Positions 7,237 to 21,921 of a stretch of 64,000 nucleotides of DNA are shown here, piece by piece. The stretch lies in the sequence record NC_133255.1, one strand, 5' to 3'. Source of the stretch: Escherichia phage vB_EcoS-26175I. The notes below the pieces were generated by a model. That model was not told the origin of the DNA. It worked only from the letters and a program-made list of their open reading frames with translations, and made no database searches. Every line of letters starts with the position of its first letter. The stretch's first letter is position 1. The position numbers were made by a program, and so were the translations under genes.

Positions 7237-7255
7237 AATGAATTTTTTAAATTTG

Positions 7256-7327
7256 ATGCTCCCACCAGGAATCGAACCCAGTTCAGATGCTTACAAGGCA
7301 ACTGCATCGCCAGCAATGCTTTAGGAG
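7256..7327 (-). tRNA. tRNA-Thr (anticodon TGT)
   Basis: T-arm with aatcgaa loop, acceptor gctccca/taggagc, anticodon loop ctTGTaa; no encoded CCA. Confidence 0.55.
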
Positions 7328-7494
7328 CATTAACCCGTTATTTCAACGGGATTTCTTTTTCATATACAGGAGACTTATCAGACATTACTGTCCTAGCCAA
7401 CTGCTGTAGAAATTCGAAGGAGAGTTTTAAACGTTCTTCACCCAACTCAACCTCAACGCACTTCATTTGTTTATCAACCTTTAGCTTTAGATTA

Positions 7495-8361: not shown

Positions 8362-8676
8362 AATTGAAATCTCTAGTTATCCCTTTCGTAGGGGCTAAAG
8401 GGCGATACCCATCCTAAAGACTTCAATTGTGGCGGCTCTCCGAAACTCATCACACTAACAACTAGTTGATTACTTCTGGATTCTCGCCCAGAAAATTCTC
8501 TAGAAAGGTGCACCGTTACTCTTTGAGCCATTGAATATCAAGAAGTAGAAGGACTCGAACCTTCACGAGATAGACCATTTATCTCAGCCTCGTTTTCGGG
8601 TATCTTATGAGGAGTGGATGTTCCCCTTACGCCCTTTAGGAAGCCCCGTCTACCGATTCCGGCATACTTCAAGATT

Positions 8677-8766
8677 TGGCAGAAGATAATGGAGTCGAAC
8701 CATCACCGTATCACTACAGCGGGCCGGTTTTCAAGACCGGTTACGTACCACTACGTCCTATCTTCT
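8677..8766 (-). tRNA. tRNA-Ser (anticodon TGA), long variable arm
   Basis: 87-nt body; acceptor agaagat/atcttct; anticodon stem ccggt/accgg, loop ctTGAaa. Confidence 0.7.
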
Positions 8767-9407: not shown

Positions 9408-9488
9408 TGGTAGGGATGGAGGGACTCGAACCCACACCCGAAGACTAGAACCTAAATCTAGCGCGTCTGCCAATTTCGCCACATCCCC
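9408..9488 (-). tRNA. tRNA-Leu (anticodon TAG), short variable region
   Basis: 78-nt body; anticodon stem ctaga/tctag perfect, loop ttTAGgt. Confidence 0.5.
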
Positions 9489-10166: not shown

Positions 10167-10431
10167 AGATATTCCTTCTAGTTTACTAAGGCTATTAGCT
10201 CGGTGTGCGTATTACCCTCAGACATTAGCCAGTAGAGGATAACCGCTCTTCACAAACCCGATACACTATTCAGTTGCCGCTGAATCTAGTGGACTAATCT
10301 AGAACTTATTGCAAAGTATCCCCTGCCATTAGGGGTCTAATTGCAATTGTGCTTTTTGGCAGCCAGTCCTAGGTCGAGCTAATACCTTAGTGAACTTTGA
10401 TGAGGATTTCTCCTCATCAATTTATATAAAT

Positions 10432-11788: not shown

Positions 11789-12100
11789 AATATTCTTTGT
11801 TAACTCACTTTATAAAATATATTATACAGATATTTAAGCATAATAGCAAATGAGTTTTTAATAAATTTACTTATTGCGTAGGCCACCTCACGCTTCAAAC
11901 GCTCTGCTGACAAAGAAGTTTGCGAGACTTCTCTTAAATGCCAGAATAGACCCGCCGATCTATCGGAACCTACTCAATAAGTAAACTTTCGTTTACCTAC
12001 ACCTACCTGGTCGGGAGGATTTTCAGCGACTAGAACCGGCCGGAAACTCATCGCCTTGTTTATCTAGGAGTCCGTTCTCTAGGAAGCAGAAACCTAAATT

Positions 12101-12174: not shown

Positions 12175-12312
12175 ATAATAAGTCAATCTAGGCAGGACTT
12201 GAACCTGCTATCACTTGTGCGGATTTACGAGAACCATTCTTTCACTCGAATCGAACGAGCTTCTACCCTCGGCAAGCTGGTGTCCCCTCTCCACCACGCT
12301 AGAATGTTTAAT

Positions 12313-13246: not shown

Positions 13247-13332
13247 TGGCGGGCCGTGTAGGAGTTGAACCTACTTTATCCTTGCGGATACGGATTAACA
13301 GTCCGGCGCTTAAACCGTTCAGCCAACGGCCC
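13247..13332 (-). tRNA. tRNA-Asn (anticodon GTT) with unusually long variable arm
   Basis: 83-nt body, perfect acceptor gggccgt/acggccc, T-arm gtagg-agttgaa-cctac; loop ctGTTaa; variable hairpin atcc-ttgc-ggat. Confidence 0.5.
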
Positions 13333-15400: not shown

Positions 15401-15478
15401 TGGTAGGGGTGGTGGGATTCGAACCCACAAAACCTGAATTTTAAGTCCAGTACCTATGCCAATTCGATTACACCCCCA
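15401..15478 (-). tRNA. tRNA-Leu (anticodon TAA), short variable loop
   Basis: T-arm gtggg-attcgaa-cccac; loop ctTAAaa; type-I length is unusual for Leu. Confidence 0.5.
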
Positions 15479-20952: not shown

Positions 20953-21921
20953 ATTGATTCCTTTTGTTAGGTATTTTTAAGAACTCTCGTAAAAGTCCTT
21001 AAAGATACCCGGCGGTAGGTAGGGTCAGCCCCCTCAGATTAAGCTCTGCAGCCCTTCCGTCAGACAATATCTTCCAGTTTAAGTCAGGGTGACTTTGTGG
21101 TTATTCAGCTAAGGCTGATCGGCAGCTCTTAGGTCATGACTCCTCGTCGCTCTTTACTCACCGGCTAGGAAGTTATCTCGAGTTCTTCCTAGCTCTTTAG
21201 TCGTGCCATTAAGGTGCCTTCTAAGAGACTTACCTTTTCCCACTTTCGATTTGGGCATGTATCAGGTAAGGGTAGCCAAATCAGCATCCTAGTCCTACGG
21301 GGTCTCATCAAATTACATACCACCGCTTTTCGATATGTAATGCCCATGTCTATACGGGAGAAGAAAATGGGCATCTTTCTCTTCGTCTGATAGCTTGAAA
21401 AACGACTCCTCATGGAGGAAAAACTTCACTATCTAGGCTAAAGCCTAAAGTTCTTCTTTAATCCGGCAAAGCAAAACCGTAGTATATACTTTTCAGGAAT
21501 GGTTGGTTAGTCTGGAACCAACTACCGCGTGGTTTTGGCAGTGCACAGCTGCCTGCGATTGCTTCGCCATTAGAAGCACCAGTTATCCAACTCTTTCCGA
21601 CCGTGGGACTCGAACCCACATCTTCAGGCGGTGAAGCCCTAATAATACCTATTATACTAGGACGGCAGTGTTGTTACATAAGTGGTTTCGGCACCCCACT
21701 AACATAAACTAGAGAAGAGTTTACGAGATTTCGGGACAGCTCCCGAGTTTTCCGCAGATTTTCAGTTCCCTATCAATAGCAATAAGCGTTAGCTCGTAGC
21801 CTCTCTCAGAGTACTTACTAGTCTCCAACTCACCGACTCTATTCAGTGGAATAGCTATCCTAGTAGGAGTCACTAAACTCACTCAGCGTAATCGGCTCGC
21901 TGTTCTCTAATTTATGAATCT

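What the first reader, a model, noticed from the sequence alone, without database searches (positions are those of the whole stretch)
8537..8671. Atypical ~130-nt tRNA-like element inside the tRNA array
A canonical T-arm (gaagg-actcgaa-ccttc, 8548-8564) is flanked by a 7-bp acceptor-like helix whose partner lies ~125 nt away (agaagta at 8541-8547 with tacttca at 8665-8671). The interior (hairpin gagat...atctc 8567-8585 and more) does not fold into a standard cloverleaf. It could be a small stable RNA, a tRNA with a large insertion, or a degenerate tRNA.
Basis: seen in the sequence. Interest (0 to 1): 0.6.

Follow-up and report, generated by a model that had tools for sequence, protein, structure and literature searches.

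The report
Phage T5-type tRNA-like stable RNA1
This is the counterpart, in a T5-like phage, of phage T5's already annotated "RNA1": a tRNA-shaped non-coding RNA whose anticodon loop is replaced by a conserved extra hairpin. It is real and under selection, but it is not new and its job is still unknown.

Summary
It lies on the minus strand (window 8671 to 8540), like all 31 tRNA genes of the array. The window is a T5-like phage, 100% identical to Escherichia phage vB_EcoS-26175.

The element is 80% identical to the stretch that GenBank record AY543070 (phage T5) annotates as rna1, "tRNA-like stable RNA with unknown functions". It sits in the same place, between tRNA-Ser(UGA) and RNAI/RNAIII/tRNA-His.

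It has a full cloverleaf body:
- a 6-bp acceptor stem plus a U.U mismatch;
- a leucine-type D arm;
- an anticodon stem;
- a long variable arm;
- a canonical T arm.

Between the anticodon-stem strands lie 48 nt instead of 7. They form two further helices capped by an invariant loop, ACAUCCAC.

Across 30 distinct homologues, 93% of cells pair and 15 of 39 pairs show compensatory changes, against 1-3 in shifted controls.

It is not a decoding tRNA. It has no conserved anticodon loop and no encoded CCA (29 of 31 neighbouring tRNAs have one). It gets no Rfam tRNA hit, and its "intron" boundaries are inconsistent.

Best reading: a stable tRNA-scaffolded RNA, cut out by the tRNA-processing enzymes, that displays two invariant loops to an unknown partner.

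Novelty: already known. Interest: low to moderate.

The parts
8540..8671 (-). Whole tRNA-like RNA: 132 nt from acceptor position 1 to the discriminator. It is the orthologue of T5 rna1. The terminal helix can extend to 8537-8674.
   Evidence: Model R1 scores 8537-8674 at 156 bits. It is 80% identical to T5 rna1 over 145 aligned positions, which AY543070 annotates.
8665..8671 (-). Acceptor stem, 5' strand (UGAAGUA).
   Evidence: It pairs with 8541-8547 as 6 bp plus a U1.U72 mismatch. Pairs 6-132, 8-130, 5-133 and 10-128 of the alignment show double changes.
8541..8547 (-). Acceptor stem, 3' strand (UACUUCU). It is followed by discriminator U at 8540 and by GAU..., with no encoded CCA.
8646..8662 (-). 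D arm: a 3-bp stem (CCG/CGG) with a leucine-type loop, GAAUCGGUAGA (G18G19 present).
   Evidence: The stem is 100% paired and the loop nearly invariant. R1's best non-self hits are tRNA-Leu genes in every phage, including T4.
8640..8644 (-). Anticodon stem, 5' strand (GCUUC).
   Evidence: It pairs with 8587-8591. Three of the 5 pairs show compensatory changes (GC/AU, GC/UA, CG/GC) and 99.3% of cells pair.
8587..8591 (-). Anticodon stem, 3' strand (GAGGC).
8592..8639 (-). The 48 nt that take the place of a 7-nt anticodon loop:
- junction strands that are not conserved (8635-8639 and 8592-8597);
- helix Pa (8631-8634 with 8598-8601);
- an internal loop;
- helix Pb (8622-8627 with 8608-8613).
   Evidence: In Pa, 2 of 4 pairs are compensated. 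In Pb, 3 of 6 pairs are compensated and up to four pair types occur at one position. The junction sequences differ between lineages: CUAAA/GAAAAC, CGAAU/UAAAA and CUAA/ACGG.
8614..8621 (-). Invariant 8-nt apical loop ACAUCCAC of helix Pb.
   Evidence: It is identical in 29 of 30 distinct homologues; T5 has ACAUCCGC.
8566..8586 (-). Long variable arm: a 6-bp stem with an invariant 9-nt loop, AAAUGGUCU (8572-8580).
   Evidence: 99.4% of cells pair and 2 pairs are compensated (AU/UA/CG, GC/AU). The loop is invariant.
8548..8564 (-). T arm: GAAGG-UUCGAGU-CCUUC, with a canonical GUUCRA T loop.
   Evidence: 100% of cells pair and the loop is conserved.
8677..8766 (-). Context: tRNA-Ser(UGA) lies immediately upstream with a 5-nt spacer, the usual spacing of the array.
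8430..8529 (-). Context: the homologue of T5 stable RNA I starts 10 nt after the element's discriminator.
   Evidence: Alignment A1 and the T5 feature sequences.

Best explanation
The element is the orthologue of bacteriophage T5 gene rna1, a non-decoding tRNA-like stable RNA.

It is transcribed on the minus strand as one unit of the polycistronic tRNA precursor: tRNA-Ser(UGA), RNA1, RNAI, RNAIII, tRNA-His.

Shown here: its body keeps everything that makes an L-shaped tRNA.
- an acceptor/T-arm stack;
- U8, A14 and G18G19;
- a canonical T loop;
- a leucine-type D arm;
- a long variable arm.

Shown here: the anticodon loop has been replaced by a two-helix extension of the anticodon arm. The extension ends in the invariant loop ACAUCCAC. 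The variable arm carries a second invariant loop, AAAUGGUCU.

Inferred:
- The tRNA body recruits the host tRNA-processing enzymes. RNase P would act at the 5' end, and RNase E plus exonucleases in the A/U-rich 3' trailer.
- The tRNA body protects the RNA from decay, exactly as the engineered 'tRNA scaffold' does.
- The two invariant loops are presented to a sequence-specific partner, protein or RNA, that is still unidentified.
- It is neither aminoacylated nor used in decoding.
- The most attractive, though untested, role for the partner is in the contest between phage and host over tRNA metabolism or defence.
For: Identity:
- The window is a T5-like phage, 100% identical to vB_EcoS-26175II-V.
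- T5 record AY543070 annotates the syntenic stretch as misc_RNA rna1, 'tRNA-like stable RNA with unknown functions', followed by rnaI, rnaIII and tRNA-His.
- The two stretches are 80% identical over 145 aligned positions.

Structure, on 30 distinct homologues from Tequintavirus, Epseptimavirus and Sugarlandvirus:
- 93.4% of cells form standard pairs.
- 15 of 39 pairs have changes on both sides, against 1-3 for slid partners.
- 0 of 500 shuffles reach the observed values.
- Compensation occurs in the acceptor stem, the anticodon stem, both insert helices and the variable arm.
- Both loops are invariant while the stems vary.

Not a decoder:
- The junction that replaces the anticodon loop is not conserved.
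- ARAGORN's forced reading flips between Phe(AAA) and Leu(UAA) among homologues.
- 29 of 31 tRNAs in the array encode CCA; this element does not.
- There is no Rfam match, even at E<=10.

Not coding: the 44-codon frame that is open in the window is broken by stop codons in most homologues.

Leucine-type body: R1's best non-self hits are tRNA-Leu genes in T5-like phages and in T4.

Array-like spacing: a 5-nt spacer follows the CCA of tRNA-Ser. No convincing promoter or terminator lies in between.

Scaffold principle: E. coli processes and stabilises RNAs inserted in place of a tRNA anticodon loop (PMC3753655).
Against: - No transcript data were available here. The length, the ends and any post-transcriptional CCA addition are unknown. 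The T5 annotation simply runs rna1 up to the first base of rnaI.
- No partner was found. The complements of the two loops occur in the 64-kb window no more often than chance. No host sequence matched.
- The terminal helix can be extended by three more pairs beyond the 7-bp acceptor in both lineages (pairs 1-137 and 2-136). That could hinder canonical RNase P cleavage.
- The tRNA region of T5 tolerates deletions. This rests on the title of Glukhov et al. 2018, seen, and on my own knowledge. Any function is therefore dispensable in laboratory hosts.
Confidence: 0.6

Rival explanations
1. It is purely a cis-acting processing module. The tRNA-like fold exists only as 'punctuation', so that RNase P and the 3' enzymes release the neighbouring RNAs (tRNA-Ser, RNAI, RNAIII, tRNA-His). 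The excised RNA would have no function of its own.
For: It is embedded head-to-tail among other stable RNAs with very short spacers. RNAI follows it in both the Escherichia/Salmonella and the Klebsiella lineages.
Against: Punctuation needs only the acceptor/T-arm minihelix. It does not explain a 48-nt covarying extension or two loops that stay invariant across three genera. The neighbouring tRNAs and RNAI carry their own tRNA-type ends.
Confidence: 0.15
2. It is a decaying pseudo-tRNA: a former tRNA-Leu gene disrupted by an insertion and now drifting.
For: The body is leucine-like. There is a U1.U72 mismatch and no CCA. T5-like phages vary in tRNA content, and homing endonuclease genes are scattered through the region.
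Against: About 490 phage records carry it. Compensatory changes maintain every helix, including the two inside the insertion. The loops are invariant while the stems change. Drift would destroy pairing rather than compensate for it.
Confidence: 0.07
3. It is an intron-containing tRNA gene. The 41-nt insert would be spliced out to give a decoding tRNA, Leu(UAA) or Phe(AAA), as ARAGORN prints.
For: ARAGORN in intron mode calls it. In T5 the 3' side of the insert happens to read CUUAAAA, a perfect Leu(UAA) anticodon loop.
Against: - The predicted anticodon and intron position change between close homologues, and the junction sequences are not conserved.
- There is no Rfam group I or group II intron hit.
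- From my own knowledge, 41 nt is far too short for a self-splicing core, and enterobacteria have no bulge-helix-bulge splicing endonuclease.
- The discriminator is U, not the A73 that E. coli LeuRS needs (my own knowledge).
- There is no encoded CCA.
- T5 annotates the unspliced length as the stable RNA.
Confidence: 0.03
4. It is a small protein-coding gene, as several GenBank records annotate ('hypothetical protein' over this stretch).
For: A 44-codon frame with a TTG start is open in the window at 8538-8672 on the minus strand. Several records annotate a hypothetical protein here.
Against: The frame contains stop codons or is frame-shifted in most homologues. The substitutions are paired as RNA helices.
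Confidence: 0.01

Closest known systems
Bacteriophage T5 rna1 ('RNA1, tRNA-like stable RNA with unknown functions', AY543070 30501-30644)
   Same: They are homologous in sequence (80% identity) and share the same neighbours and order: tRNA-Ser(UGA), RNA1, RNAI, RNAIII, tRNA-His. They also share the same fold, with compensatory differences in the acceptor stem, the anticodon stem and the insert helices.
   Different: In T5 a small ORF (T5.063) separates tRNA-Ser from RNA1; the window has only a 5-nt spacer. Helix Pa is GGG/CCC in the window and AGGU/ACCU in T5. The loop is ACAUCCAC in the window and ACAUCCGC in T5. The element is unannotated, or mis-annotated as a hypothetical protein, in most other records.
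Bacteriophage T4 RNAC and RNAD (species 1 and 2 stable RNAs of the T4 tRNA cluster)
   Same: They are small stable RNAs cotranscribed with phage tRNAs, with roles still unknown (PMC3014915; PMC9697503). RNAC also has a canonical T arm, an acceptor-like helix and a long variable-arm-like hairpin.
   Different: There is no detectable homology. Model R1 gives RNAC only 9.9 bits, against 36.6 bits for T4 tRNA-Leu. RNAC's extra sequence lies at the 5' side, not inside the anticodon loop.
Engineered 'tRNA scaffold' RNAs (Ponchon and Dardel)
   Same: The architecture is the same: acceptor stem, T arm and D arm are kept, and the anticodon stem-loop is turned into an insertion site holding a hairpin. 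In E. coli such chimeras are processed precisely, modified and protected from decay (PMC3753655).
   Different: Those are man-made. Here the design is natural and conserved, it also uses the variable arm as a second display site, and its cargo has no known ligand.
Class-II tRNA-Leu
   Same: It shares the D-arm sequence and geometry (3-bp stem, GGAAUYGGUAGA loop), a long variable arm and the T loop. tRNA-Leu genes are the best non-self hits of the model.
   Different: It has no 7-nt anticodon loop, no encoded CCA, a U.U mismatch at 1-72 and discriminator U. It gets no Rfam tRNA score.

Membership tests
T5 rna1 family (tRNA-like stable RNA1 of T5-like phages) | Sequence homology to T5 rna1 | tested here: met
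   80% identity over 145 aligned positions, E=4e-31. See also alignment A1.
T5 rna1 family (tRNA-like stable RNA1 of T5-like phages) | Same genomic position: downstream of tRNA-Ser(UGA), upstream of RNAI, RNAIII and tRNA-His | tested here: met
T5 rna1 family (tRNA-like stable RNA1 of T5-like phages) | Shared secondary structure maintained by compensatory change | tested here: met
   15 of 39 pairs are compensated, 93.4% of cells pair, and the controls are far lower.
T5 rna1 family (tRNA-like stable RNA1 of T5-like phages) | Accumulates as a discrete stable RNA in infected cells | not testable with these tools
   Only the GenBank note 'stable RNA' is available. The primary papers are not in the library.
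Canonical decoding tRNA (Rfam RF00005) | Score at or above the Rfam gathering threshold (29 bits) | tested here: not met
   No tRNA hit over 8537-8674, even at E<=10. The 29 Rfam tRNA hits of the window do not include it.
Canonical decoding tRNA (Rfam RF00005) | 7-nt anticodon loop with a conserved anticodon | tested here: not met
   48 nt lie between the stem strands. The junction sequences are not conserved, and ARAGORN's anticodon differs between homologues.
Canonical decoding tRNA (Rfam RF00005) | 3' CCA encoded, as in the other tRNAs of this array | tested here: not met
   29 of 31 tRNAs end in CCA. The element continues U-GAUAUU instead.
Canonical decoding tRNA (Rfam RF00005) | Acceptor, D and T arms with conserved tertiary-core nucleotides | tested here: met
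Intron-containing tRNA (group I or II, or bulge-helix-bulge) | Recognisable intron core, or conserved splice boundaries that give one anticodon | tested here: not met
   No Rfam intron family matches. The predicted boundaries and anticodon vary among homologues.
tmRNA | tRNA-like domain plus a tag reading frame | tested here: not met
   The ARAGORN tmRNA search finds nothing, and there is no Rfam hit.
T4 RNAC (species 1 RNA) | Sequence and structure homology | tested here: not met
   Model R1 gives 9.9 bits, E=0.03, and only over RNAC's tRNA-like 3' part.

The most novel reading that the evidence does not exclude
RNA1 is a natural tRNA-scaffolded aptamer or decoy. The L-shaped body would get it processed and stabilised like a tRNA. 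The elongated anticodon arm and the invariant loops would then trap or block a host factor that handles tRNAs, for example a tRNA-cleaving anti-phage nuclease. This would add an RNA inhibitor to the replacement tRNAs by which T5 already defeats PARIS and retron Eco7 (titles and abstracts listed).
Probability: 0.15. Interest if true: 0.7.

Novelty: already known. Interest (0 to 1): 0.3.

Why it matters
The gene itself has been on the T5 map for decades. The practical value is for annotation:
- It is unannotated, or mis-annotated as a hypothetical protein, in most of the roughly 490 T5-like genomes that carry it.
- Rfam has no family for it.
- tRNA finders in intron mode will mislabel it as tRNA-Phe(AAA) or tRNA-Leu(UAA).

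The biological value is as a well-defined target:
- It is a small RNA under clear structural selection, with two invariant display loops.
- It sits in the tRNA island of a phage group whose tRNAs are now known to counter host immunity.
- The covariation-backed fold given here says exactly which nucleotides to mutate.

Tried and rejected
- Rfam gave nothing at the gathering threshold or at E<=10.
- The ARAGORN tmRNA and mitochondrial modes gave nothing relevant.
- A single-sequence fold was not informative. The z-score was -0.9, which is usual for tRNAs.
- A search for antisense targets of the two invariant loops in the window found only the loops themselves, at chance level.
- blastn against 5,426 E. 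coli genomes found no match.
- Looser pattern scans of IMG/VR gave chance hits only, and none scored with the model. One further contig, L040, matched the variable-arm pattern but not the model.
- A metagenome scan found only ordinary T5-like contigs. No distant relative or intron-less ancestral tRNA was found.
- Literature searches for T5 RNA1 found no paper in the library. Glukhov et al. 2018 is not held.
- I considered a resemblance of the window's insert (CGUAAGGGGAAC...AUCCACUCCU) to the 3' end of 16S rRNA, recalled from memory. I dropped it because those letters are not conserved in T5, SSP1 or the Klebsiella phages.
- I considered a loop-loop pairing between ACAUCCAC and AAAUGGUCU. At most 3 bp are possible, and there is no variation to test it.

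Full report
**What the window is.** The 315 bases between two flanking tRNA genes, and the whole tRNA region, are 100% identical to Escherichia phage vB_EcoS-26175II-V (Demerecviridae, Epseptimavirus). They are 80-98% identical to hundreds of T5-like phages of Escherichia, Salmonella and Klebsiella. ARAGORN finds 31 tRNA genes, all on the minus strand. Rfam confirms 29 of them.

**Checking the observation.**
- Read on the minus strand, they are a canonical T arm, GAAGG-UUCGAGU-CCUUC (8564-8548).
- An acceptor helix, UGAAGUA (8671-8665) with UACUUCU (8547-8541), has six Watson-Crick pairs and a terminal U.U mismatch.
- ARAGORN with introns allowed adds exactly one call to the window, c[8540,8671]. 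It draws a class-II cloverleaf with a 41-nt 'intron' in the anticodon loop.
- Rfam has nothing for it, even at E<=10, and there is no tmRNA call.

**It is already annotated in T5.** GenBank record AY543070 (phage T5) lists this order between tRNA-Ser1(UGA) and tRNA-His:
- misc_RNA rna1, 'tRNA-like stable RNA with unknown functions';
- rnaI and rnaIII, 'stable RNA with unknown functions'.

The window element is 80% identical to T5 rna1 over 145 aligned positions and sits in the same order. In most other records the stretch carries no annotation or a 'hypothetical protein'.

**Structure.**
- I aligned eleven diverse homologues and wrote the fold by hand from the compensatory differences.
- I built covariance model R1 from it and collected 35 full-length homologues, 30 of them distinct. 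They come from Tequintavirus, Epseptimavirus and Klebsiella Sugarlandvirus.
- The alignment has essentially no indels, so it does not depend on the model.
- 93.4% of cells form standard pairs.
- 15 of the 39 pairs have changes on both sides, against 1-3 when the 3' partners are slid by 1-3 columns.
- No shuffle out of 500 reaches the observed values.
- Compensation is seen in the acceptor stem, which has an entirely different sequence in the Klebsiella phages.
- It is also seen in the anticodon stem (3 of 5 pairs), in both helices inside the insertion (Pa 2 of 4, Pb 3 of 6) and in the variable arm.

By contrast, several parts are invariant or nearly so:
- the D loop (GGAAUYGGUAGA);
- the T loop;
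- the apical loop of the insertion (ACAUCCAC, 8621-8614);
- the variable-arm loop (AAAUGGUCU, 8580-8572).

**Why it is not a decoding tRNA or an intron-bearing tRNA.**
- The strands that replace the anticodon loop are not conserved: CUAAA/GAAAAC, CGAAU/UAAAA and CUAA/ACGG.
- ARAGORN's forced reading flips between Phe(AAA) and Leu(UAA) among close relatives.
- 29 of the 31 tRNAs of the array encode CCA; this element does not.
- No intron family matches.
- The 44-codon frame that is open in the window is interrupted in most homologues.

**Origin of the body.** Model R1's best non-self hits are the tRNA-Leu genes of each T5-like phage (29-37 bits). In T4 the best hit is also tRNA-Leu, at 36.6 bits. 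This fits the leucine-type D arm. No host sequence matches.

**Range.** About 490 phage records carry it. Pattern scans of IMG/VR and of metagenomes, checked with the model, returned only T5-like contigs.

**How it probably works.**

*Shown here:*
- A conserved L-shaped tRNA body.
- An anticodon arm lengthened by two helices.
- Two invariant loops.
- Array-type spacing: 5 nt after the CCA of tRNA-Ser, with RNAI starting 10 nt after the discriminator.
- No convincing promoter or terminator in between.

*Inferred:*
- The RNA is cut out by the tRNA-processing enzymes.
- It is stabilised by its tRNA fold. The engineered tRNA scaffold of Ponchon and Dardel exploits this principle in E. coli (PMC3753655).
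- It presents its invariant loops to an unidentified partner.

I found no antisense target in the window.

**Closest analogue outside the family.** This is T4 RNAC/RNAD, whose roles are also unknown. RNAC is tRNA-like in its 3' part but is not homologous.

**Verdict.** This is a real, structured, selected RNA gene, correctly spotted. It is the known T5 RNA1 and not a new kind of element. Its function remains open.

Noticed in passing
window 8430-8529 (minus strand): This is the homologue of T5 stable RNA I. Its ends pair (GGCUC...GAGCC) and it finishes in G-CCA, like a tRNA acceptor end. Both ends are conserved with T5 and with the Klebsiella phages, while the middle has diverged. It follows RNA1 in every lineage I looked at.
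   Followed up: partly
window 8362-8425 (minus strand): This is the counterpart of T5 RNAIII. It is a hairpin-type RNA whose ends form a perfect 12-bp stem (CAAUUGAAGUCU/AGAUUUCAAUUG) that runs into the first bases of tRNA-His. It is about 40 nt shorter than in T5, and its interior is unrelated in sequence.
   Followed up: partly
window 12182-12306 (minus strand): This is the homologue (89.6% identity) of T5 rna2, the second 'tRNA-like stable RNA'. It has an acceptor-like helix and a canonical T arm (GCAGG-UUCAAGU-CCUGC) around an expanded centre. It lies between tRNA-Gly(GCC) and tRNA-Lys(CUU). The array therefore holds at least two tRNA-scaffolded RNAs.
   Followed up: partly
window 11875-11973 and 10250-10384 (minus strand): These are homologues of T5 stable RNAs rnaIV (89% identity) and rna2H (79% identity). 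Both are unannotated in the identical GenBank record.
   Followed up: no
window 21388-21721, including 21594-21667 (minus strand): This is the homologue of the 5' part of T5 'RNAX'. Inside it, ARAGORN calls a 74-nt tRNA with anticodon UCA (printed as tRNA-SeC), and Rfam scores it as tRNA at 33 bits. It has no encoded CCA. It could be an opal-reading or a degenerate tRNA.
   Followed up: no
window 13247-13332, 15401-15477 and 9408-9488 (minus strand): tRNA-Asn(GUU) is 86 nt with a long variable-arm hairpin, which is unusual for Asn. tRNA-Leu(UAA) and tRNA-Leu(UAG), at 77 nt and 81 nt, have much shorter variable regions than bacterial class-II tRNA-Leu.
   Followed up: no
window 7255-7329 (minus strand): tRNA-Thr(UGU) is the only ordinary tRNA of the array without an encoded CCA.
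   Followed up: no
window 8373-8531 (minus strand): A 52-codon ORF with an ATG start overlaps the RNAI/RNAIII homologues, and its ATG is conserved in T5. It is probably spurious, given that T5 annotates stable RNAs there. I did not test it.
   Followed up: no
L007 606-742 (Salmonella phage GEC_vB_N5): The 5' strand of the acceptor stem is of the window type (GAAGUA) and the 3' strand is of the T5 type (UAUUCC). This gives an A.C mismatch. It looks like a recombinant between two compensated stem variants.
   Followed up: no
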